From: an uncultured Clostridia bacterium
GTDB taxonomy: Bacteria; Bacillota; Clostridia; TANB77; CAG-465
Assembly: GCA_944383015.1 (NCBI GenBank)
Contig: CALWOC010000001.1
Location: 148,997 to 212,996, forward strand
Reading direction: 5' to 3'
Length of the DNA stretch: 64,000 bases
Shown here: positions 6,324 to 48,168 of the stretch, piece after piece
Layout of the letters: each line of letters starts with the position of its first letter
Position numbering within the stretch: position 1 is the stretch's first letter
Notes under the pieces: generated by a model
What the model was told of the DNA's origin: nothing
Seen by the model: the letters and a program-made list of their open reading frames with translations, nothing else
The model's database searches: none
Program-made: the position numbers and the translations under genes

Positions 6324-6397
6324 TGGAGCGGGTGATGAGAATCGGACTCACGTATTCAGCTTGGAAGGCTGACGTTCTACCATTGAACTACACCCGC
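6324..6397 (-). tRNA. tRNA-Gly (anticodon UCC)
   Basis: Minus-strand read GCGGGTGTAGTTCAATGGTAGAACGTCAGCCTTCCAAGCTGAATACGTGAGTCCGATTCTCATCACCCGCTCCA forms a cloverleaf with anticodon loop CTTCCAA and an encoded CCA end. Confidence 0.9.
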
Positions 6398-8893: not shown

Positions 8894-8979
8894 TGGTACC
8901 GATGGTGGGGCTCGAACCCACACGTCACAAGGACAATGGTGTTTGAGACCATCCTGTCTGCCAATTCCAGCACATCGGC
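8894..8979 (-). tRNA. tRNA-Leu (anticodon CAA)
   Basis: This 86-nt class II tRNA has a long variable arm, anticodon loop CTCAAAC and an encoded CCA end. Confidence 0.9.
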
Positions 8980-10426: not shown

Positions 10427-11857
10427 ATGACTAAAGACTTTTATGCTTTAAAAAATATACATAAAATACATATGATTGGTATCGGCGGAGTTAGTATGAG
10501 CGGTATTGCTTTAATCTTAAAAAAAGATGGATTTGAGGTTACTGGATCAGATAAGAACTACGGTGATATGATAGATATATTAGAAAATAATGGAATACCA
10601 GTATTTATTGGTTCTAATGCAGATCTTGTAAAAGATGCAGATGTTGTTGTATACACTTCTGCTATTAATCAACATGATCCTGAATTTGTAAGAGCCAAAA
10701 GCTTAGGTATTCCAACTTATGAAAGAGCAAAATTTTTAGGTCTACTTTTAACTAGTTATAAGATGCCTATATGTATATGTGGAACACACGGAAAAACAAC
10801 CACTACTTCAATGGTATCTTCTATATTTATTGATGCAGGTATGGATCCAAATGTTCAAGTTGGATCAAAGTATGAAAAATTAAATAACTCAAATTATAGA
10901 CTTGGTAATTCAGATTACTTTATACTTGAAGCTTGTGAATATGTAGATAGCTTCTTAAATTTTCCTCATCACTGTGCAACAGTACTAAATATTGAAGCTG
11001 AACACTTAGACTACTTCTCAGATATAGAAGATATAAAAAAATCTTTTAAAAAATTTATACTTATGCTACCACAAGATGGTATTTTAATAATAAATCAAGA
11101 TGATACAAATTGTATGGATGTACTAAATGATATAAAAGATGATTTACAAAAAAAGAGTATAAGAATATTTAAATTTTCATTAAGTGATCCTGATGCATAC
11201 ATTTATGCAGAAAATTTCAAATGTAATATGAAAGGATTTTATTCTTTTGATGTTACAGATCCAAGAAATGGAAAAAGTTATCATTTCTATTTAACTGTAC
11301 CTGGAATACACAATGTATATGATGCTTTAGCTGCAATTACTACATGTCAAGCATATGGAATTGACTTTAAAGATATGCAAGAAAGTCTAAGTAAATTTTG
11401 TGGTGCTAAAAGAAGATTTGAATACAAAAAGACTATTGCACCAGATGTTGAATTGTATGATGACTATGCTCATCATCCAACAGAAATTAAAGCAACACTT
11501 TCTGCAGCAAAACAAAAAGAGCACAATAGAATTATTGCTGTATTCCAACCTCATACTTATTCAAGAACAAAAGAACTTTTAGCAGATTTTGCTAACGCTT
11601 TTGTAGATGCAGATATTGTATACTTAATGGATATTTATGCAGCAAGAGAAATTGATGATGGAACTATATCTTCTAGAGATGTTGCAGATCTTGTAAGTAA
11701 AAATGGAACTGAAGCATACTATATTCCTTCTCTTGAAGAAATTGCAAATGAAATAAAAAATATAGTAAAACCGGGTGATATTGTTCTTTCAATTGGAGCT
11801 GGAAATGTTACACATTTAGCAGATTATTTTGAGGATATAAAACCAAAAGAAAAATAA
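10427..11857 (+). CDS. murC: UDP-N-acetylmuramate--L-alanine ligase
   Basis: An N-terminal dinucleotide-binding motif IHMIGIGGVSMSGIA, the Mur ligase P-loop GTHGKTTT and the overall Mur ligase layout are present. The start was chosen at the ATG 10 nt after AAGGA, although the ORF could begin at the GTG at 10418. Confidence 0.9.
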   Translation: MTKDFYALKNIHKIHMIGIGGVSMSGIALILKKDGFEVTGSDKNYGDMIDILENNGIPVFIGSNADLVKDADVVVYTSAINQHDPEFVRAKSLGIPTYERAKFLGLLLTSYKMPICICGTHGKTTTTSMVSSIFIDAGMDPNVQVGSKYEKLNNSNYRLGNSDYFILEACEYVDSFLNFPHHCATVLNIEAEHLDYFSDIEDIKKSFKKFILMLPQDGILIINQDDTNCMDVLNDIKDDLQKKSIRIFKFSLSDPDAYIYAENFKCNMKGFYSFDVTDPRNGKSYHFYLTVPGIHNVYDALAAITTCQAYGIDFKDMQESLSKFCGAKRRFEYKKTIAPDVELYDDYAHHPTEIKATLSAAKQKEHNRIIAVFQPHTYSRTKELLADFANAFVDADIVYLMDIYAAREIDDGTISSRDVADLVSKNGTEAYYIPSLEEIANEIKNIVKPGDIVLSIGAGNVTHLADYFEDIKPKEK

Positions 11858-11886
11858 CCAGATAGTTTTAACTTCTGGTTATTTTC
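11856..11886. terminator. bidirectional terminator
   Basis: The arms AACCAGA and TCTGGTT form a stem with T-rich flanks. Confidence 0.5.
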
Positions 11887-12356
11887 TATTCTAAAATTTC
11901 TTCTAAAAAAATTGGTTCATCTACAAAAATAAGTGGTCTTCTTGCACTGTTTATATCATATTCTGTAAAAACACTTTCCTTCTTTATATTATATTTTTCT
12001 CTTAATCTTTTAATTATTCCTTTGAGTGATATTAATTCTTTTTTAGTAAACTTTCCGTCTTTATCTAAGCATAGCATTATTCCTATACTATCACTATCTA
12101 TATCAACATTTTGTGAACAAATTGCTTTTTCATTTTCTGGAATTATATTAATTATTTCACCATTAGTTCCAATTATGTAATGACATGAAAATTCTCTATC
12201 ATCTCTATACTTACTCATTTCAATTATATTTCTATTTTTAAGACAACTAAAGCCATTATATCTAGAAGATGTTATTATTATTTTTTGAGGAGTATCTATC
12301 TTCTCCATTCTTCTTGTATTATCACTCTTTGTTAAATAATATTTTTTTACTTTCAT
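11886..12356 (-). CDS. putative N-acetylmuramoyl-L-alanine amidase (amidase_2/PGRP-like)
   Basis: The segment CHYIIGTNGEIINIIPENEKA resembles the amidase_2 HYVIxxDGxIxQ block. The match is weak. Confidence 0.4.
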   Translation of the reverse strand: MKVKKYYLTKSDNTRRMEKIDTPQKIIITSSRYNGFSCLKNRNIIEMSKYRDDREFSCHYIIGTNGEIINIIPENEKAICSQNVDIDSDSIGIMLCLDKDGKFTKKELISLKGIIKRLREKYNIKKESVFTEYDINSARRPLIFVDEPIFLEEILE

Positions 12357-12464
12357 ATTATATCACCATTATATTTTATGTAAATTTTTAGTTTTTGTTA
12401 ATCTTCTTGACAACTTATTTATCTTTGATATAATATTAGAGATATATAAAGGAGTGTATTATAA

Positions 12465-13559
12465 ATGAAAATAGGAATAGTTGGTTTACCAAATGTTGGA
12501 AAATCTACACTTTTTAATGCTATTACAAAAGCAGGAGCAGAAAGTGCAAATTATCCATTCTGTACAATTGAGCCAAATATAGGTATGGTATGTGTACCAG
12601 ATAAAAGAATAGATGTTTTATCTAAAATGTACGATACAGATAAGACAACTTATGCAACTATTGAGTTTGTAGATATTGCTGGACTAGTAAAAGGTGCTTC
12701 AAAAGGAGAAGGACTTGGAAATAAATTTTTATCTCACATTCGTGAAACTGATGCCATTGCACATGTTGTAAGATGTTTTGAGGATGAGCAAATTGTTCAT
12801 GTAGATGGAAAAATAGATCCAATAAGTGATATTGAAACAATATCTTTAGAACTTGTTTTTGCAGACATAGAAACTATATCTAAAAGAATGGATAGAGTTG
12901 GAAAAATGACAAAATCAGGAGATAAAAAGGCAATTGCAGAAATGGAATTACTAAGAAGAATTAAAGAACATTTAGATAATGGTAATCCTGTAAGAACAAT
13001 GGAACTTACAGATGATGAAAAAGAAATGATAAAAGATGCCTTCTTTTTAACTGACAAAAAAGTAATTTACGTTGCAAATGTATCTGAAGAACAAATCTCT
13101 TCAATAGATACAGATCCATATGTTCAAAAAGTTAAAGAGTATGCAAAAGCAGAAGGTGCTGAAGTTATTGCTCTTTGTGCTAAACTCGAAGAAGAACTAT
13201 CAGAACTTGATGATGAAGATAAAGAAATGCTTATGCAAGACTATGGTATTGATGAATCTGGTCTAGATAAATTAATAAAAGCTAGTTACTCTTTACTTGG
13301 TCTTATCTCTTTTCTTACCGCTGGAAAACAAGAATGTAGAGCTTGGACTATAAAAAAAGGAACAAAAGCTCCACAAGCTGCTGGTAAAATTCATTCTGAT
13401 TTTGAAAGAGGATTTATAAAAGCAGAAGTTGTATCTTATGACGATTTAATAAAATATGGTAGTATGAATGCAACTAAAGAAAAAGGATTAGTTAGACTAG
13501 AAGGAAAAGAATATGTTGTAAAAGATGGAGATATAATATTATTTAGATTTAACGTATAA
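12465..13559 (+). CDS. ychF: ribosome-binding ATPase YchF (Obg-family GTPase-like)
   Basis: The N-terminal MKIGIVGLPNVGKSTLFNA G1 motif, a TGS-like C-terminal domain and a length of 364 aa all fit YchF. A TTGACA-16-TATAAT promoter lies at 12407-12434. Confidence 0.9.
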   Translation: MKIGIVGLPNVGKSTLFNAITKAGAESANYPFCTIEPNIGMVCVPDKRIDVLSKMYDTDKTTYATIEFVDIAGLVKGASKGEGLGNKFLSHIRETDAIAHVVRCFEDEQIVHVDGKIDPISDIETISLELVFADIETISKRMDRVGKMTKSGDKKAIAEMELLRRIKEHLDNGNPVRTMELTDDEKEMIKDAFFLTDKKVIYVANVSEEQISSIDTDPYVQKVKEYAKAEGAEVIALCAKLEEELSELDDEDKEMLMQDYGIDESGLDKLIKASYSLLGLISFLTAGKQECRAWTIKKGTKAPQAAGKIHSDFERGFIKAEVVSYDDLIKYGSMNATKEKGLVRLEGKEYVVKDGDIILFRFNV

Positions 13560-13582
13560 AGCATGAGAAATCATGCTTTTTC
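13560..13582 (+). terminator. terminator
   Basis: The arms AGCATGA and TCATGCT surround a GAAA loop and are followed by TTTTT. Confidence 0.65.
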
Positions 13583-13675
13583 TTATTATAAAAAATAATG
13601 CTTTACATAAGGAATTTACTTAATTTTCCAGTATTCTTTTTTTTAGATTTTTGTGTAATTTTTTATTAAAAAAGC

Positions 13676-13704
13676 TTGACTTTTAGTATCAAGTAGATTA
13701 TAAT
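13676..13704 (+). promoter_or_regulatory. promoter of the tRNA-Ile2/Met - tRNA-Tyr pair
   Basis: The sequence reads TTGACT, a 17-nt spacer, then TATAAT. The first tRNA starts 21 nt downstream. Confidence 0.6.
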
Positions 13705-13725
13705 AATAACTGTCCACAGTGATGT

Positions 13726-13802
13726 GGGCCTTTAGCTCAGTTGGTCAGAGCACTCGGCTCATAACCGAATGGTCCGGGGTTCGAATCCCTGAAGGCCCAC
13801 CA
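13726..13802 (+). tRNA. tRNA with anticodon CAU, most likely tRNA-Ile2 (lysidine) rather than elongator Met
   Basis: The 77-nt cloverleaf has anticodon loop CTCATAA and an encoded CCA. The body (GGGCCTTTAGCTCAGTTGGTCAGAGC...) resembles Bacillus tRNA-Ile(CAU) as I remember it. Assigning Ile versus Met needs a tRNA classifier. Confidence 0.8.
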
Positions 13803-13817
13803 TTTATATTATTCTTT

Positions 13818-13903
13818 GGGTAGGTGCCCGAGTGGCTAAAGGGGGCAGACTGTAAATCTGTTGGCTTACGCCTACGATGGTTCGAATCCATCCCTGCCCA
13901 CCA
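13818..13903 (+). tRNA. tRNA-Tyr (anticodon GUA)
   Basis: This 86-nt class II tRNA has anticodon loop CTGTAAA, a long variable arm and an encoded CCA. Confidence 0.9.
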
Positions 13904-13918
13904 TAAATAAATGGTTTT

Positions 13919-13948
13919 ATATCAATACATCGGTATTGATATTTTTTA
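13919..13948 (+). terminator. terminator after the tRNA pair
   Basis: A 10-bp perfect stem (ATATCAATAC / GTATTGATAT) is followed by TTTTT. Confidence 0.7.
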
Positions 13949-14094
13949 TGTCATTAATTATTTACAAATTTCTACATAATTTTTATTATATTCAAAATTT
14001 TTAATTCAAATTTATTTAATTTCAAAAAAAATAACAAATCCTTTATATATATATTACTACAGTTAAAAGCTATTGCTTTTGAAAGGAGAACAAC

Positions 14095-15059
14095 ATGGGA
14101 CAAGATTTAACTGAACGATTAATACAAAAATCTCAAGAAGCATTTATTTTATCTATTGAGACATATAATAAACCAACTATAAAATATAGAGTTGAAAGCT
14201 TTTCTTTTTTTATATGTAATGCTTGGGAACTAATGCTAAAAGCACACTTAATTAAACAAAATAAAAGTATATATTATAAAGATAAGCCAGATAGAACTAT
14301 AAGTTTAAGTGAATGTATAAAACGTATATTTACAAATGATAAAGATCCACTTAGATTAAACTTAGAAAAAATAATTGAACTTAGAGATACTAGTACACAT
14401 TTTATTACAGAAGAATATGAAATGTTATATATTCCTCTATTTCAGGCATGTGTATTTAACTTTGCTGAAAAAATACAGCAGTTTCATAATGTTGATATAA
14501 GCAAACTTGTACCTCAAAATTTTTTAACTATAACTACAAATATGAAATCTTTTAATGAGACAGAAATTAGAGCTAAATATCCAGAAGAATTGTCTAAAAA
14601 ATACTTAACACTTATGCTACTCTTACTCCATTAATTCAAAACAATAATAACAATTTTGCCATAAAAATAGAACATTATCACTATATTACAAAGAATAAAA
14701 ATGAAGCAACTGAACTGTTGTTTATTGATAACAATGCTTCAGAAAATGTAAAAGTAATAAAAGAATTAAAAGATCCAAATGTAACACATAAATACAATAT
14801 GAAAAAATTAAATCAAGAAGTATCACAAAGATTACAAAAAATAGGTATAGACTTAAAATTTAATCAATATCATTTTAAACTTTTTTGTAACTATTTTAAT
14901 ATAAAAAGCAATCCAAAATTTTGTTTTATAAATAAGATTGGAGCATATCCTACATATAGTTATTCCTTAGGCGCAATAGATTTTATTGTAAATGAAATAA
15001 AAAAATATTCAAATAATATTATTTCAAATCTTAAAGAAAAGTTAAAAAAAGAGAGTTAA
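14095..15059 (+). pseudogene. disrupted gene for a DUF3644-like protein with an HEPN-type Rx4H motif
   Basis: Two ORFs (179 and 113 aa) are joined by a 1-nt frameshift in an A6 run at about 14590-14600. After the frameshift the second frame reads ...KILNTYATLTPLIQNNNNN.... The N-terminus (ETYNKPTIKYRVESFSFFICNAWELMLKAHL) matches a conserved family that I remember as DUF3644. An ELRDTSTHF (Rx4H) motif is present. The annotated TAA stop is followed by 33 further in-frame sense codons in a GC-richer tract (see findings). Confidence 0.5.
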
Positions 15060-15217
15060 CCCCAGGAGCAAAGGATTTCTAAATATAACCTAAGTTATAT
15101 CTACTCCCATTCAGGAACCCAGCCTTATCCTTCACAAGTTAACTCCATTAATTAATTATATCATATATATTAAAATATTCAAGTTTTGAAAATTTTATCT
15201 ACAAGAACAAACAAAAA

Positions 15218-15252
15218 TAGGCAGTGAATAAAATCACTGTCTATTTTTAGAT
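15218..15252. terminator. bidirectional terminator
   Basis: The arms AGGCAGTGA and TCACTGTCT form a stem with one G-U pair. T runs are present on both strands. Confidence 0.55.
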
Positions 15253-15422
15253 TTTTTTTTAATTTTTGTAATATTAGTTATCTCTTCTACTTTTATTTTT
15301 TGCTCATCTATGGATGTTAAATTGCTTAATGGAAATATGAAATCATATTTCTCTCTATTTGGATTCTGAGCGTCTTTTCTTTCTATGTCTAATTGATACT
15401 CGATATTTTTCTTTTCTTTCAT
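15234..15422 (-). CDS. small hypothetical protein (62 aa), last gene of the metzincin operon
   Basis: The ORF is lysine-rich and hydrophilic. There is no convincing RBS and no recognisable family. Confidence 0.25.
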   Translation of the reverse strand: MKEKKNIEYQLDIERKDAQNPNREKYDFIFPLSNLTSIDEQKIKVEEITNITKIKKKSKNRQ

Positions 15423-15473
15423 TTTTGATACGTTTTCACCTCATATATAGTATGAGCATTTATTAACTTAATA

Positions 15474-16247
15474 TTACTTTCCTTTTAAATAGTTTTCCAT
15501 GTCTACATCAACAGAATTTCCATCTGCATCTTTTATCGTATTAGTTTTTTCATCATATTCTTTAAATCCATATTTTAGTCCACTACATATGTATAAAACT
15601 CCATCCTTTTCATATGTTGTAGTTAAATATTGTTTGTCTGGTTCTACTTCTGCAATGTATACGTCGTTTTCACAAGTTACATTAACATATTGGTTATCTT
15701 TATATTTACTAATCACATCATCTTCTATTCCTAATAGACTTTTAATTTCTTTTACGATAAATTTCCCACCAGGTATAATCATTTCTTTTTCTCCTTCTAA
15801 ATCATTTAAATAGTTTCTTTCTACATTTACTTTAACCCTAGTTGATGGAACTCCATCTATTATTTCATATCCTAAAATTTCTTTAACCTCTATGACACTA
15901 ATGTAATTTATTGGCGCATTATCATAAATATTACTGCTGTTATCAAAAATTACTTCTCCAGAAATCACCTTTTCTTCTTCTTCAATAGGTTTTTCTTCTT
16001 TTCCTGTAATTTTAATTTCCTCATTAACTTCACTCTGATTATCAGTTAACAACTTAATAGCTAAAATGCTTACTCCTGTAATAAGTATAATAATAAAAAT
16101 ACTAGCAATTCTTAATCTTCTAGTTCTACGCCTTTTTTCTTCTGCTATTCTTTTAAATAGCTTCTTAGTATCAAACATACTATCAGGAACCTTAATTTCC
16201 TTATACTTTTTTTCAAGTATTTTATCGATTTCATTCATATCTTTCAT
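15474..16247 (-). CDS. single-pass membrane protein with a cytoplasmic N-terminus and an extracytoplasmic beta-rich domain (anti-sigma-factor-like topology)
   Basis: A basic stretch RRRTRRLR precedes one TM helix (IASIFIIILITGVSILAI), followed by about 190 aa of extracellular sequence. The start was set at the ATG 9 nt after GAGAGG. Confidence 0.45.
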   Translation of the reverse strand: MKDMNEIDKILEKKYKEIKVPDSMFDTKKLFKRIAEEKRRRTRRLRIASIFIIILITGVSILAIKLLTDNQSEVNEEIKITGKEEKPIEEEEKVISGEVIFDNSSNIYDNAPINYISVIEVKEILGYEIIDGVPSTRVKVNVERNYLNDLEGEKEMIIPGGKFIVKEIKSLLGIEDDVISKYKDNQYVNVTCENDVYIAEVEPDKQYLTTTYEKDGVLYICSGLKYGFKEYDEKTNTIKDADGNSVDVDMENYLKGK

Positions 16248-16284
16248 TTCAATCAACCTCTCATTTTAAAATTTACATATGAAT

Positions 16285-16860
16285 TTAATTATATAAATAA
16301 TTTATTGTATCATGATCACATTGCTGAACAGTAGTTACATAAGTATCTGATATATCTGGACACATTATACTATAGCTATTTTCATAGTGATTTAGTCCAA
16401 ATGCATGTCCCATCTCATGTTTTGCTGTTCTTATATCATATGAGTTTCCATTTGAAGTATTAAATACTATCTCAGTATAAAAATAATTATAAGTTGGCTT
16501 TGCTGTTCTTCTAGCAACCAATGTACCATCTGTATTCCAATATGTTGTATAACCTAATACATTACTTGTTAGATGAACATCTTGACTAGAACCTCTAGAA
16601 TAAAAATCCATATGAGTTGCATAGTTACTAGATACTGCTGTCATATATATTGGGTTCCACCCGTATCCTGTGTCTTCCCAATTGTTTGCAGCTGAAACAA
16701 TATTTGAGTAATATCCAGAAGCTGTACCATCTATATAATAGCAACAGTTTCCTACCCCTCTTGTAAATTTTGCATCATTTTCATATGTAGGAGTCATCGC
16801 AAAAACAGAACATCCTAACGCACAAAAAAATACCAAATAACAAAATAAAAACTTCCTCAT
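16285..16860 (-). CDS. secreted zinc metalloprotease, metzincin, snapalysin (M7)-like
   Basis: A signal peptide (MRKFLFCYLVFFCALGCSVFA) is present. The motif HEMGHAFGLNH matches HExxHxxGxxH and is followed by a Met-turn SIMCP. An AGGAGGG RBS is present. The mature size of about 160 aa and the HExGHxxGLxxHY pattern resemble Streptomyces snapalysin. Confidence 0.6.
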   Translation of the reverse strand: MRKFLFCYLVFFCALGCSVFAMTPTYENDAKFTRGVGNCCYYIDGTASGYYSNIVSAANNWEDTGYGWNPIYMTAVSSNYATHMDFYSRGSSQDVHLTSNVLGYTTYWNTDGTLVARRTAKPTYNYFYTEIVFNTSNGNSYDIRTAKHEMGHAFGLNHYENSYSIMCPDISDTYVTTVQQCDHDTINYLYN

Positions 16861-16941
16861 AAAATCCCTCCTACATATATAGACGGAATTCATAACGATT
16901 TTGTCACATTTTTTTTGATTTTTTTCAAAAAAATGGCATTT

Positions 16942-17823
16942 TTATGTATTTTTTAGCTCTTCTTCCTTTATTCCAGTAATATTTTCTATATCTTTTATAC
17001 TAATTCCCTTTTCTAGCATTGCTTTTGCAATTTCTAATTGAGCAGTATATCGACCTTGTCTAATCCCTTCTTCCTTTCCTTTTTTAAGTCCTTCTTTTAT
17101 ACCCTTTTGTTCCCTATTATATAGTGCAGATGCCAAATCTCTTTCATATTTTTCTCTTAACTCTACTTTTCTTTTAAAAGCTTCGTCTCCTTCTAAATAT
17201 TCTAGTTCTTCTTTCGCTTTTTTTATAGTGTTATTCTTTTTCATTATTTCATCTAACTCCTTTGAATTTTCACTATCTATAAAAGTTAACCATTGATTTG
17301 TTACATCTTCCTTATTATAATTACTTTTTCTAAACTTTGGTAGCTCTATATAATAATACTTCATATTTGTATTTATTTCATGTTTTCTATGCTTGTTTAA
17401 CACCATTACTGTATCATTTATATATTCCTCAAATGGAAAATAATTATAATTTAATACACATATTACTATTACTGGTTTTATTTCATTATACAAATCATTT
17501 TTCTTTAGTTACTCTGATATTAACTTTGAACCATAAAATGTTGACCTTTTTATTATATTAAATTCATTTTTTAACTGAATTTCTATATTTATTATACTGT
17601 CATCATTTATTATTGCTCTAACATCTATTATTCCTAGCTTATCTTCTTCTATATCTTTTTCTAAATGTATATCATGCATTATCTCTATTTTCTTTATGTT
17701 TATATTTAGTAAAGAAGATAAAAACTCTGTTAAAAAAGCCTCATTTCCTTTATGAGCAAATATTCTTTTAAATACTATATCTCTTTTTACAGATAGTCTT
17801 TTTTCTTGTAACTTTTCAGTCAT
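16942..17823 (-). pseudogene. Rpn-family recombination-promoting nuclease / PD-(D/E)XK putative transposase (YhgA-like), disrupted by an in-frame TAA
   Basis: The N-terminal DIVFKRIF...IDVRAIINDDSIINIEIQ nuclease core and the C-terminal ...RQGRYTAQLEIAKAMLEKGISIKDIENITGI... repeats are characteristic of the family. The two ORFs are in the same frame and separated only by a TAA at 17509-17511 (...KLISE*LKKNDLYNEIKPV...). Confidence 0.65.
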
Positions 17824-18027
17824 TTCCTACCTCCTATACTATCATAAAAATTGTTACTTTTCAATATTGATATTATTTTTAGATTAAAATGCGCATTTTT
17901 TTATCCTATTTAAAGCTAAATTATTTATGATAAAGGTATTATATATATATTGAATTATATTGTAAATACTATCTTATACATGTTACATAACTAGAACTTT
18001 TTAAAAATATTTAATTGTAGAAAAAAA

Positions 18028-18062
18028 AAGTACTATACTCTATTTAAGTATAGCACTTCTCA
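18028..18062 (-). terminator. terminator of the nusB-xseA-xseB operon
   Basis: The arms AGTGCTATACT and AGTATAGTACT form a stem followed by a T9 run on the minus strand. Confidence 0.6.
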
Positions 18063-18293
18063 TTATTCTTCTGAAACAAAATTTTCTTCTTTTATATTTC
18101 CATCTTCTCCTTGAACTAATATATTTATTTTCTTTTCAGCCTCATCTAATTTATTGCTGCATTCTTTTGAAAGTTTTATTCCTTTTTCAAATTCTTTTAT
18201 TGCTTCATCAAGTCCAAGATCTCCACTTTCAAGATTTGTAGCAATATCTTCTAATTCTTTTAAATTTTCTTCAAAAGTCTTTTCTTCTTTCAT
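18063..18293 (-). CDS. xseB: exodeoxyribonuclease VII small subunit
   Basis: The 76-aa helical protein has FEENLKELEDIATNLESGDLGLDEAIKEFEKGIKL, typical of XseB. It is immediately downstream of xseA. Confidence 0.85.
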   Translation of the reverse strand: MKEEKTFEENLKELEDIATNLESGDLGLDEAIKEFEKGIKLSKECSNKLDEAEKKINILVQGEDGNIKEENFVSEE

Positions 18294-18307
18294 TATTTTT
18301 TCACTCC

Positions 18308-19501
18308 TTATTTTACAATAGCAGATATTTTTCCATCTGTAAGTATTATTTTTATCTCATCATTACTATTTACATCACTTACTTTTTTTATTACTTTTCC
18401 ATCTACATTTTCTGTAACACTATAACCTCTAGTTAACGTTTTTAAAGGACTTAATGTATCTATCTTTGTAATACTCTTTATACATCTTGTCCTATATCTC
18501 TCAATCTTATATCTTAGCAAAGATTCAGATTTAGACATAAGACTATCTATAGTCATTCTATACTTATTTATTTTTTCTAAAGGAACTTTTTCTAACTTAG
18601 AAGCTTTAAGCCTTTCTACATATTGTCTTCTTCTTTCAATATAATTTTTAATAGCTATAACAATTCTATTTTTATCTTTTAAAATCCTATTTACTATCTC
18701 AGTATACTCTGGATAAACAAGTTCAGCTGCAGCAGATGGTGTTGGAGCCCTTAAATCTGAAACAAAATCACAAATAGTAAAATCTGTTTCATGTCCTACA
18801 GCTGATACTACAGGAATATTTGAAGCAAATATTTCTCTTGCAAGATTTTCATCATTAAATCCAAACAAATCTTCAAAAGAACCTCCACCTCTTGCTATTA
18901 TAATTACATCTACATTATTCAATTTATTAAAAGTTCTAAGACCCTCAATTACAGTACTTGAAACATTTACACCTTGTACTGCAGCAGGATATATAAGTAA
19001 ATTGACATTAGGATATCTTCTTGTTGTAACATTTATTATATCTCTAACTACAGCACCTGTCCTTGATGTTATAACACCAACTCTTTTAGGTAAAAACGGT
19101 ATTTTTTTCTTATTTTTATCATCAAAAAGACCTTCCTTGCTAAGCTTCTCTTTTAACTGTTCATAAGCAAGGTAAAGGTCTCCTAGTCCGTCAGGACTCA
19201 TTGATTTACAATATATTTGATAAACACCATCTCTTTCAAATACACTTACTTGTCCATTAATAATAACCTTCATACCATCAGCTGGTTTAAATTTTACATA
19301 CTGTGCATATCCTTTAAACATAACACATTTTATTGTTGAAGCCTCATCTTTTAATGTAAAATAATAATGCCCTGTATAATGTGCTTTAAAGTTAGTAATT
19401 TCACCTTTTATACTAATATTATTTAAAAGATCATCACTATCAAAAAGCATCTTAACATATTTATTTATTTCTGATACACTAAAAATCTTCTTTTGTTCCA
19501 T
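18308..19501 (-). CDS. xseA: exodeoxyribonuclease VII large subunit
   Basis: An N-terminal OB fold (VKGEITNFK) and the central catalytic region are present. The length is 397 aa. The gene order nusB-xseA-xseB is conserved. Confidence 0.9.
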   Translation of the reverse strand: MEQKKIFSVSEINKYVKMLFDSDDLLNNISIKGEITNFKAHYTGHYYFTLKDEASTIKCVMFKGYAQYVKFKPADGMKVIINGQVSVFERDGVYQIYCKSMSPDGLGDLYLAYEQLKEKLSKEGLFDDKNKKKIPFLPKRVGVITSRTGAVVRDIINVTTRRYPNVNLLIYPAAVQGVNVSSTVIEGLRTFNKLNNVDVIIIARGGGSFEDLFGFNDENLAREIFASNIPVVSAVGHETDFTICDFVSDLRAPTPSAAAELVYPEYTEIVNRILKDKNRIVIAIKNYIERRRQYVERLKASKLEKVPLEKINKYRMTIDSLMSKSESLLRYKIERYRTRCIKSITKIDTLSPLKTLTRGYSVTENVDGKVIKKVSDVNSNDEIKIILTDGKISAIVK

Positions 19502-29955: not shown

Positions 29956-29994
29956 GAGCAAAAGTGTATTTTTGACGGAGGTGAAAAAACTCAA

Positions 29995-30115
29995 AATTAC
30001 TCTTAGCGCATGGACATAAATATTTATGTTGACGAGGATGGTAGTTGTCGAAAGTCAGCGGATGCTACCACGGCAATTAGTTGTCGTTAGAATATAGTAA
30101 AAAGCAAAATCTTAA
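29995..30115 (+). ncRNA. glmS ribozyme (GlcN6P-responsive self-cleaving riboswitch) in the glmS 5' UTR
   Basis: The conserved core is present: AGCGC (P1, cleavage site), then GACGAGGATGG, GUUGUCGAAAGUC and AGCGGAUGCUACC, which correspond to the B. subtilis GACGAGGAUGG...UCGAA...GGCGGAUGCC blocks. It lies immediately upstream of glmS. Confidence 0.75.
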
Positions 30116-30196
30116 ATTGTAACAAAACTATATTTATACTAATAAGATATATAAATTGTACATTGAAAAATATAAATATTTAGGAGGTAATTTAAT

Positions 30197-47883: not shown

Positions 47884-48168
47884 TAAAAATTCCTCCTTAA
47901 CTAAAAAAAGTCATTTCATCCTTAAAATATAGGACGAAATGACTTTAAATTCCGCGTTACCACCTAAATTCATTCAATAAATATGAATGCTCTCAAAAAG
48001 CTATTACGGGCATACCCGCTTGTTCCTACTTATTTTACTGTTCAAAACAAGACCTCCAAAGTGAAATTTCAGTAATGATATATTAGTATGCTTTCAGCCG
48101 GTGACATACATTCTCTACAATATATTATCCATTACCTACTTTGCTTTATCATAGGTTTTATTTTATTC
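47884..48168 (-). promoter_or_regulatory. T-box riboswitch leader of pheST (tRNA-Phe responsive)
   Basis: On the minus strand the T-box sequence AATTTAGGTGGTAACGCGG is followed directly by the terminator hairpin AAAGTCATTTCGTCC...GGATGAAATGACTTT plus a T7 run, then the pheS RBS. A candidate specifier region with a UUC in GAAATTTCAC lies upstream. Confidence 0.8.

What the first reader, a model, noticed from the sequence alone, without database searches (positions are those of the whole stretch)
14095..15160. HEPN-motif gene with two lesions, including a 33-codon in-frame open tract after its stop codon
The DUF3644-like gene carries a 1-nt frameshift inside an A6 run near 14595. Its TAA at 15057-15059 is then followed, in the same frame, by 33 sense codons (PQEQRISKYNLSYIYSHSGTQPYPSQVNSIN) before the next stop. 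That tract is visibly GC-richer and more coding-like than surrounding intergenic DNA. This suggests the ancestral protein was about 33 aa longer and the current TAA is a nonsense mutation. Stop-codon readthrough is a less likely alternative. The ELRDTSTHF Rx4H motif suggests a HEPN-type RNase fold, which would make this a former toxin or abortive-infection-like gene now inactivated.
Basis: partly seen in the sequence, partly recalled or inferred. Interest (0 to 1): 0.5.

Follow-up and report, generated by a model that had tools for sequence, protein, structure and literature searches.

The report
Small RNA gene behind HEPN toxin
The GC-rich stretch after this broken toxin-like gene is not a lost protein tail: it is a separate, highly conserved small RNA gene on the opposite strand that travels with this family of defence nucleases in many bacteria and phages, probably to keep the nuclease in check.

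Summary
The sequence facts mostly hold. The DUF3644 (HEPN) + EC042_2821 nuclease gene is broken by a 1-nt deletion in an A run (A6 at 14596-14601; a 99%-identical contig has A7). TAA is at 15057-15059. The in-frame open tract after it is 31 codons, not 33, and is GC-richer (0.39 against 0.17).

The "lost C-terminus" reading is wrong. The repaired protein is 321 aa, and most homologues are 313-334 aa and end at the same place.

The tract is a roughly 100-nt structured small RNA gene on the minus strand (about 15148 down to 15044), convergent with the gene. It has its own sigma-70-type promoter, and its terminator U-run is the complement of the gene's last lysine codons. Compensatory changes support four helices, and G·U counts fix the strand. 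The RNA core is 89% identical across loci whose proteins are 59% identical. No Rfam 15 family matches.

All 78 genome loci analysed and all 7 annotated phage loci examined with a homologue (36-92% identical) carry the RNA. The RNA also occurs without the gene, sometimes beside a remnant of the gene's 3' end.

Best guess, inferred only: the RNA restrains or regulates the HEPN nuclease, as RCd22 does for AbiF.

The parts
14095..14634 (+). 5' part of the DUF3644 (HEPN, EC042_2821 family) gene. It reads correctly up to the A run, then goes out of frame for 11 codons to a premature TAA.
14383..14400 (+). Codons for the Rx4H motif (R97 D T S T H102), the predicted HEPN RNase active site
   Evidence: Read from the sequence. 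R97, S100, T101 and H102 are invariant in 25 homologues. Motif definition from PMC3710099.
14596..14601 (+). A6 run: site of the 1-nt deletion (frameshift). It is either a real lesion or a homopolymer sequencing error.
   Evidence: L001 has A7 here and an intact 321-aa ORF. Adding one A restores full-length homology.
14598..15059 (+). 3' part of the same gene in the shifted frame: linker plus the EC042_2821 restriction-endonuclease-like domain. The native stop TAA is at 15057-15059.
   Evidence: Pfam PF18740 at aa 227-314, E = 1.6e-23. Homologues end at the same place.
15042..15148 (-). Gene for a structured small RNA of about 100 nt. Helix P1 joins the 5' end (15144-15136) to the 3' end (15063-15055). 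Inside lie helices P2a-c, hairpin P3 with a GAAU loop, and a variable hairpin P4 (plus-strand 15083-15100). The start (about 15146-15149) and end (about 15044) are predicted, not mapped.
   Evidence: Covariance model R1 hit at 15042-15144, minus strand, 89.5 bits, E = 5e-22. Consensus fold and pair counts. Strand test. Conservation in all related loci.
15044..15050 (-). U7 tract of the RNA's intrinsic-terminator-like 3' end. On the plus strand it encodes the C-terminal lysine codons of the DUF3644 gene.
   Evidence: A T-run of 5 or more follows P1 in 79 of 80 loci; alignment; overlap with the ORF end
15155..15182 (-). Promoter of the small RNA: -35 TTGAAT (15182-15177), 16-nt spacer, TG (15163-15162), -10 TATAAT (15160-15155)
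   Evidence: Promoter scan: 10 of 12 matches plus TG. The same promoter sits at the same distance in 71 of 80 loci with at least 10 of 12 matches, and the -10 box ends 6-7 nt before P1.
15213..15258 (.). Two-way terminator-like hairpin beyond the RNA promoter. It may end the DUF3644 transcript in this genome, in which case the mRNA 3' UTR would be fully antisense to the RNA. It is not a conserved part of the module.
   Evidence: Terminator scan. Only 9 of 74 related loci have such a hairpin on that strand.

Best explanation
Shown:
- Window 14095-15059 is a frameshifted copy of a HEPN (DUF3644) + restriction-endonuclease-like gene of the EC042_2821 / PADLOC PDC-S19 family.
- The GC-rich 'post-stop tract' is a separate gene on the minus strand for a highly conserved, structured small RNA of about 100 nt. 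It has its own sigma-70-type promoter, and its U-tract overlaps the last codons of the protein gene.
- Gene and RNA form a two-part module that is conserved in prophage lysogeny regions, phage satellites, restriction-modification-like operons and plain chromosomal sites such as this one.

Inferred:
- The RNA is the dedicated partner that keeps the nuclease harmless or controls it. I favour direct binding of the folded RNA to the protein, a type III-like RNA antitoxin as shown for AbiF/RCd22. Antisense pairing with the 3' end of the mRNA may contribute.
- In this window the toxin half is inactivated by the A7-to-A6 deletion while the RNA half still looks intact.
- Phages and elements that carry the RNA without the gene may keep it as an orphan antidote or decoy.
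For: That it is an RNA gene:
- The tract is found right after the gene in every related locus.
- In 77 distinct sequences 98.7% of cells are paired, and 12 pairs carry changes on both sides, against 0 of 500 shuffles reaching that.
- An independent viral set gives 96.9% paired and 16 compensatory pairs, and all nine P1 pairs covary.
- Strand test: the minus strand gives 1600 Watson-Crick, 375 G·U and 27 broken cells; the plus strand gives 1600, 13 and 389.
- A conserved promoter and a U-tract sit at fixed distances.
- RNA core identity to the window is 0.889 at the median, against 0.665 for the coding DNA and 58.6% for the protein.

That gene and RNA are coupled:
- 78 of 78 genome loci analysed have both, and only 19 of these lie near a recombinase or XRE repressor.
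- All 7 annotated phage loci examined have both, including 4 that blastn had missed.
- Homologues in viral contigs down to 35% identity still have it.
- The gene's stop lies within 6 nt of the RNA's P1/U-tract junction in 54 of 78 loci.
- The association is one-sided. The RNA occurs without the gene in 47 of 110 viral loci, while no gene of this clade was seen without the RNA.
- At least five RNA-only loci keep a 23-26-codon remnant of the DUF3644 C-terminus right beside the RNA.

Precedent: the HEPN toxin AbiFCd is neutralised by the roughly 100-nt structured RNA RCd22 through direct binding (PMC12373285).
Against: - No experiment and no expression data were available. Toxicity of the protein, transcription of the RNA and any RNA-protein contact are all inferred.
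- The RNA also sits next to unrelated cargo genes (Abi_2, SIR2_2, DUF2326, PemK-like, RhuM, DUF1828/1829, or directly the XRE repressor) between integrase and repressor.
- In other phages the same core is embedded, co-directionally and without promoter or U-tail, in a larger conserved non-coding region. So it may have a function of its own.
- Conservation of one RNA beside a diverging protein could also mean that it binds a conserved host factor.
- Distant DUF3644 proteins (22-24% identical) have no such RNA.
- The sample of 80 genome loci is the closest 80 of 223 relatives, not a random sample.
Confidence: 0.5

Rival explanations
1. The RNA belongs to mobile elements, not to DUF3644. It would be a small RNA of temperate phages and satellites placed between the integrase and the cargo/repressor genes. 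There it could act as a transcriptional insulator or antisense regulator (in the manner of lambda OOP or sib), or bind a host factor. DUF3644 would merely be the commonest cargo next to it.
For: - In prophages the order is integrase, then the RNA divergent from it, then cargo convergent with it, then an XRE repressor.
- 47 of 110 viral loci have the RNA without DUF3644 and with very different neighbours.
- The core also occurs inside a larger non-coding region near YopX and terminase genes.
Against: - 59 of 78 genome loci with the pair have no recombinase or XRE repressor nearby. Several follow HsdM-like methylase genes, and the window itself is a chromosomal site next to tRNA genes.
- No gene of this clade was found without the RNA.
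- Only DUF3644 abuts or overlaps the RNA's 3' end. Other cargo genes end 90-165 nt away.
- Several RNA-only loci retain a stub of the DUF3644 3' end, which suggests that cargo was replaced secondarily.
Confidence: 0.25
2. The RNA is a pure antisense (type I-like) regulator. It would pair with the 3' end and 3' UTR of the DUF3644 mRNA and trigger its degradation or block its expression, without contacting the protein.
For: - Transcription is convergent with a fixed overlap.
- In the window the next plus-strand terminator lies beyond the RNA gene, so the mRNA would be complementary to the whole RNA.
- From my own knowledge, not checked here: the same geometry is described for Bacillus type I systems such as txpA/RatA and bsrG/SR4.
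Against: - A cis-antisense pair is complementary by construction, so it does not explain 89% sequence conservation, invariant loops or strand-specific structural covariation.
- The overlap with the ORF is only about 10-15 nt in most loci.
- No conserved downstream terminator defines a long antisense 3' UTR: 9 of 74 loci have one.
Confidence: 0.15
3. One reading: the TAA at 15057 is a nonsense mutation and the tract encodes a lost C-terminal tail of about 30 aa. The reader's alternative was that the tail is made by stop-codon readthrough.
For: - There are 31 in-frame sense codons, and the tract is GC-richer than its surroundings.
- A few database proteins do run into the tract: P0011, P0049 and P0066.
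Against: - Homologues, including the 98%-identical intact one, stop at the same TAA.
- The proteins that extend do so in other frames and for 8-11 codons only, with one case of 107 nt.
- The constraint is on RNA pairing on the opposite strand.
Confidence: 0.01
4. The tract is a DNA-level element: a miniature transposon with target-site duplication, an integron attC site, or a phage attachment site. The direct repeat AGTTAAC(C/T)CCA at 15054 and 15137, and the GTTAAC palindromes, would be its ends.
For: - A direct repeat 83 nt apart that is also an inverted repeat.
- The location next to tRNA genes.
- An integrase is nearby in many phage loci.
Against: - The two repeats are simply the two arms of helix P1. 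In other loci the arms differ in sequence but stay complementary.
- 375 G·U pairs on one strand against 13 on the other point to selection on an RNA.
- There is a conserved promoter and a U-tract.
- There is only a single copy in the window.
Confidence: 0.03

Closest known systems
AbiF(Cd)/RCd22 of the Clostridioides difficile phi027 prophage, with the abiF RNA motif (Rfam RF03085)
   Same: A HEPN-superfamily toxin carried by a prophage is paired with a structured non-coding RNA of about 100 nt. That RNA has a SigA-type promoter and an intrinsic terminator. [quoted passage not shown]
   Different: - The RNA here is unrelated: no Rfam hit, including to RF03085.
- RCd22 lies upstream and is co-transcribed with abiF. 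This RNA is convergent and overlaps the gene's 3' end.
- The protein is DUF3644/EC042_2821 HEPN plus a nuclease domain, not Abi_2.
- No experiment has been done on this pair.
EC042_2821 HEPN-REase family (Pfam DUF3644 + PF18740), PADLOC candidate PDC-S19, and the related defence proteins HEC-08 and Ishtar
   Same: The window protein is a member by profile match, motif and fold. The family is described as HEPN fused to a restriction-endonuclease-like domain and found in restriction-modification operons (PMC3710099). DUF3644 proteins have shown anti-phage activity (HEC-08) or anti-plasmid activity (Ishtar).
   Different: - These are described as single-gene systems. None of the three papers that mention DUF3644, in the passages I read, mentions an associated RNA.
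- HEC-08 and Ishtar have other C-terminal domains and come from Proteobacteria.
- The RNA was not found in 5,426 complete E. coli genomes.
Type III toxin-antitoxin systems (ToxIN, CptIN, TenpIN)
   Same: In these systems an endoribonuclease toxin is held inactive by a structured RNA antitoxin, they are often abortive-infection systems, and phages can escape by carrying antitoxin-like RNA. This description rests on my own knowledge. The last point would fit the RNA-only phage copies seen here.
   Different: Type III antitoxins are tandem repeats upstream of the toxin, which the toxin itself processes. Here there is a single-copy RNA with its own promoter, on the opposite strand, downstream of the gene.
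Type I toxin-antitoxin systems of Firmicutes with 3'-overlapping convergent antitoxin RNAs (txpA/RatA, bsrG/SR4); lambda OOP RNA
   Same: A small RNA with its own promoter and terminator is transcribed towards the 3' end of its target gene and overlaps it. Such systems often sit on prophages. This description rests on my own knowledge.
   Different: The toxins of those systems are small membrane peptides, and their antisense RNAs are not conserved across genera. Here the target is a 321-aa nuclease, and the RNA core is nearly invariant across Clostridia, Bacilli, Negativicutes, Melainabacteria, a spirochaete and Corynebacterium phages.

Membership tests
HEPN superfamily, EC042_2821/DUF3644 family | Profile match to Pfam DUF3644 | tested here: met
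   PF12358 E = 1.6e-57, aa 8-176, on the repaired protein
HEPN superfamily, EC042_2821/DUF3644 family | Conserved Rx4-6H motif | tested here: met
   R97-x4-H102 (ELRDTSTHF); both residues are invariant in 25 homologues. Motif definition from PMC3710099.
HEPN superfamily, EC042_2821/DUF3644 family | All-alpha HEPN fold | tested here: met
HEPN superfamily, EC042_2821/DUF3644 family | C-terminal EC042_2821 restriction-endonuclease-like domain | tested here: met
   PF18740 E = 1.6e-23, aa 227-314. Catalytic residues were not examined, and the model is poor for aa 179-230.
HEPN superfamily, EC042_2821/DUF3644 family | RNase or nuclease activity, toxicity | not testable with these tools
   Needs biochemistry. 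In this window the gene is frameshifted anyway.
PADLOC PDC-S19 (candidate single-gene phage defence) | Match to the PDC-S19 profiles | tested here: met
   PDLC04952 E = 1.3e-131, full length
PADLOC PDC-S19 (candidate single-gene phage defence) | Protects against phage | not testable with these tools
   No paper in the library mentions PDC-S19.
   Homologues are mostly 313-334 aa against 321 repaired. P0001 ends at the same TAA. The stop lies within 6 nt of the same site in 54 of 78 loci.
Frameshifted pseudogene | An indel relative to a close intact orthologue that is not a conserved slippery site | tested here: met
   A6 against A7 in L001. The A run is not conserved in other homologues, for example L002, which reads AAAAAATTA in frame. 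Sequencing error cannot be excluded without the reads.
Structured non-coding RNA gene | Base pairs maintained by compensatory changes, with an asymmetry between the strands | tested here: met
Structured non-coding RNA gene | Own promoter and terminator | tested here: met
   Consensus matches at fixed spacing in 71 of 80 loci (promoter) and 79 of 80 loci (T-run). Actual transcription was not tested.
Any Rfam 15 family (including abiF RF03085, ykkC, self-cleaving ribozymes, tRNA-like) | Covariance-model match | tested here: not met
   No hit at the element with E up to 1 (window) or up to 5 (20 other loci). ARAGORN finds nothing there.
Type III toxin-antitoxin system | RNA antitoxin made of tandem repeats upstream of the toxin gene and processed by the toxin | tested here: not met
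   The RNA is single-copy, convergent and downstream.
Type III toxin-antitoxin system | The RNA binds and inhibits the toxin protein | not testable with these tools
   Supported only by comparative asymmetry: the gene is never seen without the RNA, while the RNA is often seen without the gene.
Type I toxin-antitoxin system | Antisense RNA overlapping the toxin mRNA | tested here: met
   The RNA's 3' end overlaps the stop codon and last codons. The extent of the mRNA 3' UTR is unknown.
Type I toxin-antitoxin system | Small hydrophobic peptide toxin | tested here: not met
   The partner is a 321-aa soluble two-domain nuclease.
Integron attC site / miniature transposon | Repeated copies, target-site duplication, conservation of structure but not of sequence, integron integrase nearby | tested here: not met
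   Single copy in the window. The 'duplication' is the two arms of P1. Sequence identity is 88%. The neighbouring integrases are phage-type.

The most novel reading that the evidence does not exclude
The DUF3644/PDC-S19 HEPN-nuclease 'single-gene' defence system would in fact be a two-component RNA-protein module. Its second component would be a previously uncatalogued, deeply conserved structured small RNA acting as antitoxin or sensor. Phages would have captured the same RNA core as orphan copies next to other cargo, and as a domain of a larger phage non-coding RNA, to disarm the nuclease. That would be an RNA-based defence and counter-defence pair spread across Firmicutes, their phages and satellites.
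Probability: 0.3. Interest if true: 0.85.

Novelty: new variant of a known kind. Interest (0 to 1): 0.7.

Why it matters
Annotation: the tract is an unannotated RNA gene. Gene callers sometimes read it as a protein tail (...TPGAKDF) or as small hypothetical ORFs, for example in phage StB20-like.

Biology: DUF3644 HEPN proteins are being reported as single-gene anti-phage and anti-plasmid systems. If this clade needs a partner RNA, cloning the ORF alone could give toxic, inactive or misleading results.

It would also add a second, structurally unrelated case, after AbiF/RCd22, of a HEPN nuclease controlled by a dedicated structured RNA.

The RNA is short, very conserved and common in gut Firmicutes and in staphylococcal, streptococcal and listerial phages. 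Direct tests are therefore easy.

Tried and rejected
- **Other copies in the window.** Pattern searches with mismatches, short-word blastn and the covariance model all found only this one copy.
- **Transposon or target-duplication reading of the repeat AGTTAAC(C/T)CCA.** Rejected: the repeats are the arms of helix P1.
- **Rfam.** Searched at permissive E-values on the window and 20 loci; nothing at the element. ARAGORN found only the two upstream tRNAs.
- **Plus-strand 3'-UTR structure.** Rejected by the G·U test.
- **A conserved terminator for the DUF3644 mRNA beyond the RNA gene.** Found in only 9 of 74 loci, no better than the opposite strand at 13. The mRNA 3' end stays undefined.
- **Sequence search of solved structures.** No homologue found.
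- **Literature.** Searches for DUF3644, EC042_2821, PDC-S19, and combinations of HEPN, RNA antitoxin and prophage found no description of this RNA. Large candidate catalogues in supplementary files were not searched, so earlier detection under another name is possible.
- **12-nt repeat ACTCCATTAATT at 14625 and 15142.** About one such pair is expected by chance in 2 kb of this composition (my estimate); dropped.
- **Programmed frameshifting at the A run.** Rejected: the run is not conserved among homologues, and the close relative L001 is simply in frame.
- **Not used:** the metagenome scan and the 1.84-billion-protein search. The genome and viral scans already gave enough loci.
Full report
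**1. The observation**

Window 14095-15059 (+) holds two ORF pieces: 14095-14634 in frame 1, and an open frame 14598-15059 in frame 3. The A run is A6 at 14596-14601. Inserting one A gives a 321-aa protein. That protein matches Pfam DUF3644 (aa 8-176, E = 1.6e-57) and the EC042_2821 restriction-endonuclease-like domain (aa 227-314, E = 1.6e-23).

The stop TAA is at 15057-15059. The same frame then stays open for 31 codons, not 33. The tract 15060-15152 has GC 0.39, against 0.17 on both sides and 0.27 for the whole window.

The context is chromosomal: ychF, tRNA-Met, tRNA-Tyr, this gene, then small unknown ORFs, an M10-like peptidase and a fragment of a PD-(D/E)XK transposase-like gene.

**2. 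The frameshift**

A metagenome contig (L001) is about 99% identical over 1.7 kb. It encodes an intact 321-aa protein (P0001, 98% identical) and has A7 where the window has A6. The lesion is therefore a 1-nt deletion in a homopolymer, or a sequencing error.

The A run is not conserved in other homologues, so programmed frameshifting is not indicated.

A syntenic sister genome (L002, about 91% nucleotide identity) has an independent 1-nt deletion in a T7 run near codon 38.

**3. The 'lost C-terminus' is refuted**

There are 3619 homologues. The best 120 are nearly all 313-334 aa, against 321 for the repaired window protein. In the alignment they end at ...KLKK, as the window does. L001 uses the very same TAA and carries the same tract after it.

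Three database proteins do read into a similar tract, but in other frames...KLTPGAKDF...LTPGTKDS and ...PTPGAKEFLVTWTYSHSRTQPTSFTS. That was the first hint that the DNA itself is conserved, not a peptide.

**4. The tract is conserved in every related locus, more than the protein**

A genome scan seeded with the protein returned 80 loci. They come from Lachnospiraceae, other Clostridia, Selenomonadaceae, Erysipelotrichaceae, Melainabacteria/Gastranaerophilales and Treponema bryantii, with proteins 54-92% identical.

Blastn with window 15050-15150 finds the tract directly after the gene in essentially all of them, at 72-92% identity. The median identity to the window is 0.889 for the RNA core (variable hairpin excluded), 0.665 for the coding DNA and 58.6% for the protein. 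The RNA is the better conserved of the two in 75 of 76 loci.

**5. It is an RNA gene on the minus strand**

Read on the minus strand, the alignment shows these features in order:
- a -35 box (TTGACA);
- a spacer of 16-17 nt;
- an extended -10 box (TGnTATAAT);
- 6-7 nt;
- the sequence 5'-AGUUAACUCGUGAAGGAUAAGGCUGGGUUCCCGAAUGGGAGUAGG-[variable hairpin]-CUUAGAAUUCCUUUGCCCCUGGGGUUAGCUUAUUUUUUU.

Of 80 loci, 71 match the promoter consensus in at least 10 of 12 positions at that fixed place, and 79 have a T-run of 5 or more after the last helix. The window's own promoter is TTGAAT-16-TG-TATAAT at 15182-15155.

RNAalifold on 77 distinct sequences predicts these helices:
- P1, nine pairs joining the 5' and 3' ends;
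- P2a, P2b and P2c;
- hairpin P3, with a GAAU loop;
- a variable hairpin P4.

Pair counts support the fold:
- In the genome set 98.7% of cells are paired and 12 pairs have changes on both sides. No shuffle of 500 reaches these values, and sliding the partners by one column drops pairing to 61-64%.
- An independent set from viral contigs (73 distinct sequences) gives 96.9% paired and 16 compensatory pairs, and all nine P1 pairs covary.
- The invariant pairs of P2a and P2c carry no information either way.

The strand is settled by wobble pairs. On the minus strand there are 1600 Watson-Crick, 375 G·U and 27 broken cells. For the plus strand the same pairs give 1600, 13 and 389.

The covariance model R1 hits the window once, at 15042-15144 (-), with 89.5 bits.

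The direct repeat AGTTAAC(C/T)CCA that flanks the tract is simply the two arms of P1, which happen to be near-palindromic in this lineage.

**6. Overlap with the protein gene**

The U-tract of the RNA is the complement of the lysine codons at the end of the ORF. The stop codon lies within 6 nt of the P1/U-tract junction in 54 of 78 loci. In 22 loci the ORF runs 26-34 nt into the RNA gene, producing the ...TPGAK(D/E)F tail. In one locus it runs 107 nt.

This explains the 'coding-like' look: a constrained, moderately GC-rich RNA sequence that happens to be open in one frame.

**7. What is known**

*The protein.* DUF3644 is the EC042_2821 HEPN family, with a conserved Rx4-6H motif, fused to a restriction-endonuclease-like domain and found in restriction-modification operons (PMC3710099).
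- The window protein matches PADLOC candidate PDC-S19 at E = 1e-131.
- Two preprints report other DUF3644 proteins as defences. HEC-08 is anti-phage and needs the histidine of the Rx4-6H motif. Ishtar is anti-plasmid.
- No solved structure is detectable by sequence.

*The RNA.* No Rfam 15 family matches it in the window or in 20 other loci. I found no paper describing an RNA linked to DUF3644.

*The closest precedent.* AbiFCd/RCd22 pairs an Abi_2 HEPN toxin with a structured RNA of about 100 nt that neutralises it by direct binding. That RNA lies upstream and is co-transcribed, and it carries the unrelated abiF motif (PMC12373285).

**8. Distribution and coupling**

It also occurs in 23 deposited phage genomes and 2 plasmids. 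The phages infect Staphylococcus, Streptococcus (including satellites), Listeria, Flavonifractor and Corynebacterium. It is absent from 5,426 complete E. coli genomes.

In annotated phages the RNA lies convergent with a 'DUF3644 domain-containing protein', between that gene and the integrase. Four phage loci with the protein that blastn had missed all have the RNA by covariance model, at 78-84 bits.

All 78 genome loci analysed have both parts. Only 19 lie near a recombinase or XRE repressor, and others follow HsdM-like methylase or helicase-like genes.

In the RNA-seeded viral set, 63 of 110 informative loci have DUF3644 convergent with the RNA and 47 do not.

Two distant DUF3644 proteins on actinobacterial plasmids (22-24% identical) and a Legionella fragment lack the RNA, even with the model's filters off.

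**9. RNA without the gene**

*Class (a).* The order is integrase, RNA, another cargo gene, XRE repressor. The cargo is Abi_2, SIR2_2, DUF2326, PemK-like, DUF1828/1829, RhuM or Ltp/DUF5067, or the repressor follows directly. These genes end 90-165 nt from the RNA and do not overlap it.

In at least five such loci (L184, L170, L189, L161, and more weakly L164) the DNA right beside the RNA's 3' end still encodes the last 23-26 residues of a DUF3644 protein. Identity is 60-68%, and the E-values of 5e-5 to 5e-4 are against a small database. The pair therefore looks ancestral there, with the gene body replaced later.

*Class (b).* In other phages the core is nearly invariant, but P1 has an entirely different sequence that is still paired, and there is no promoter or U-tail. 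It lies co-directionally inside a conserved non-coding region of 400-600 nt with further long-range complementary segments, between early genes and YopX/terminase genes.

**10. Interpretation**

Shown:
- an unannotated, structurally constrained small RNA gene;
- its fixed convergent overlap with this clade of HEPN-nuclease genes;
- a one-sided association, in which the gene is never seen without the RNA while the RNA is often seen without the gene.

Inferred: the RNA is the nuclease's partner. The one-sidedness is what an antidote and a toxin would show. Strong sequence conservation argues for recognition of the folded RNA by a protein rather than mere antisense pairing. AbiF/RCd22 shows that a HEPN toxin can be controlled this way. 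Orphan and embedded copies in phages could be retained antidotes or decoys.

The main rival is that the RNA has a function of its own in mobile elements, as an insulator or regulator next to the integrase or as a binder of a host factor. It cannot be excluded and gets about 0.25.

My confidence that the tract is an RNA gene is about 0.95. My confidence that it is a functional partner of the nuclease is about 0.6-0.65. For a mainly protein-binding antitoxin it is about 0.4-0.5.

**11. This window**

The protein gene is disabled, if the A6 is real. The RNA gene scores like its relatives. It has one derived change: plus-strand G to A at 15066, which turns a G-C pair of P2b into G·U.

Two sister lineages carry independent homopolymer frameshifts in the protein gene, and both keep a high-scoring copy of the RNA tract. 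That fits a toxin being lost while its antidote persists. It could equally reflect assembly errors.

Noticed in passing
L192, L119, L152, L133, L116, L187, L188, L108, L151, L193 (viral contigs), about 300 nt either side of the RNA core: The same 60-nt RNA core sits inside a larger conserved non-coding region of 400-600 nt. That region is flanked by a co-varying 16-nt inverted repeat (TCAACCGCAGAACTGG / CCAGTTCTGCGGTTGA, with U·G wobbles on the RNA's strand). It also has a second long-range pair (GGCTATATAAGTGGC / CACCTTATATAGCC) and a movable hairpin. There is no Rfam hit. It may be a large phage non-coding RNA, or a miniature transposon-like element.
   Followed up: partly
L002:4000-4966 (MAG, uncultured Clostridia; syntenic with window 11000-19000 at about 91% identity): The orthologous DUF3644 gene has an independent 1-nt deletion in a T7 run near codon 38, while the tract still matches the window's at 92%. 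This is a second homopolymer frameshift in a sister lineage. It could be parallel inactivation or an assembly error.
   Followed up: partly
window 14095-15059 against L001:191-1156: Between two copies that are otherwise about 99% identical, 7 substitutions fall inside the gene, 6 of them non-synonymous. Only 1 falls in about 700 nt of flanking DNA, and that one is in the RNA. Derived changes occur in both lineages, for example D-to-Y and P-to-S at the conserved KKDP in the window.
   Followed up: no
22 of 78 related loci, e.g. L013, L018, L027, L055; proteins P0011, P0049, P0066: Gene calls for DUF3644 homologues run 8-11 codons (once 107 nt) into the antisense RNA gene. This gives a recurrent tail ...(L)TPGAK(D/E)F that reflects RNA conservation, not protein conservation. 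In phage StB20-like two 'hypothetical protein' ORFs are annotated over the RNA.
   Followed up: yes
L204:2859-3008 (Listeria phage LP-HM00113468): A strong match to the Listeria small RNA rli48 (177.8 bits) lies about 500 nt upstream of the new RNA, in the same integrase-to-cargo region.
   Followed up: no
window 16942-17493 (-): This 183-aa ORF matches only the C-terminal half (profile positions 103-226 of 229) of the PD-(D/E)XK transposase-like family PDDEXK_2. It is probably a truncated gene.
   Followed up: no
window 29994-30145 (+), 47927-48161 (-), 6327-6397 (-), 8897-8979 (-): Ordinary RNA elements elsewhere in the window: a glmS ribozyme, a T-box leader and two further tRNA genes.
   Followed up: no
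L205:3001-3095 (Fructilactobacillus ixorae plasmid NZ_CP097479.1): An RNA-only copy (89.4 bits) sits in a textbook lysogeny module on a 48-kb plasmid: integrase, RNA, DUF5067, Ltp lipoprotein (superinfection exclusion), XRE repressor, Cro-like regulator. The plasmid is probably a phage-plasmid.
   Followed up: partly
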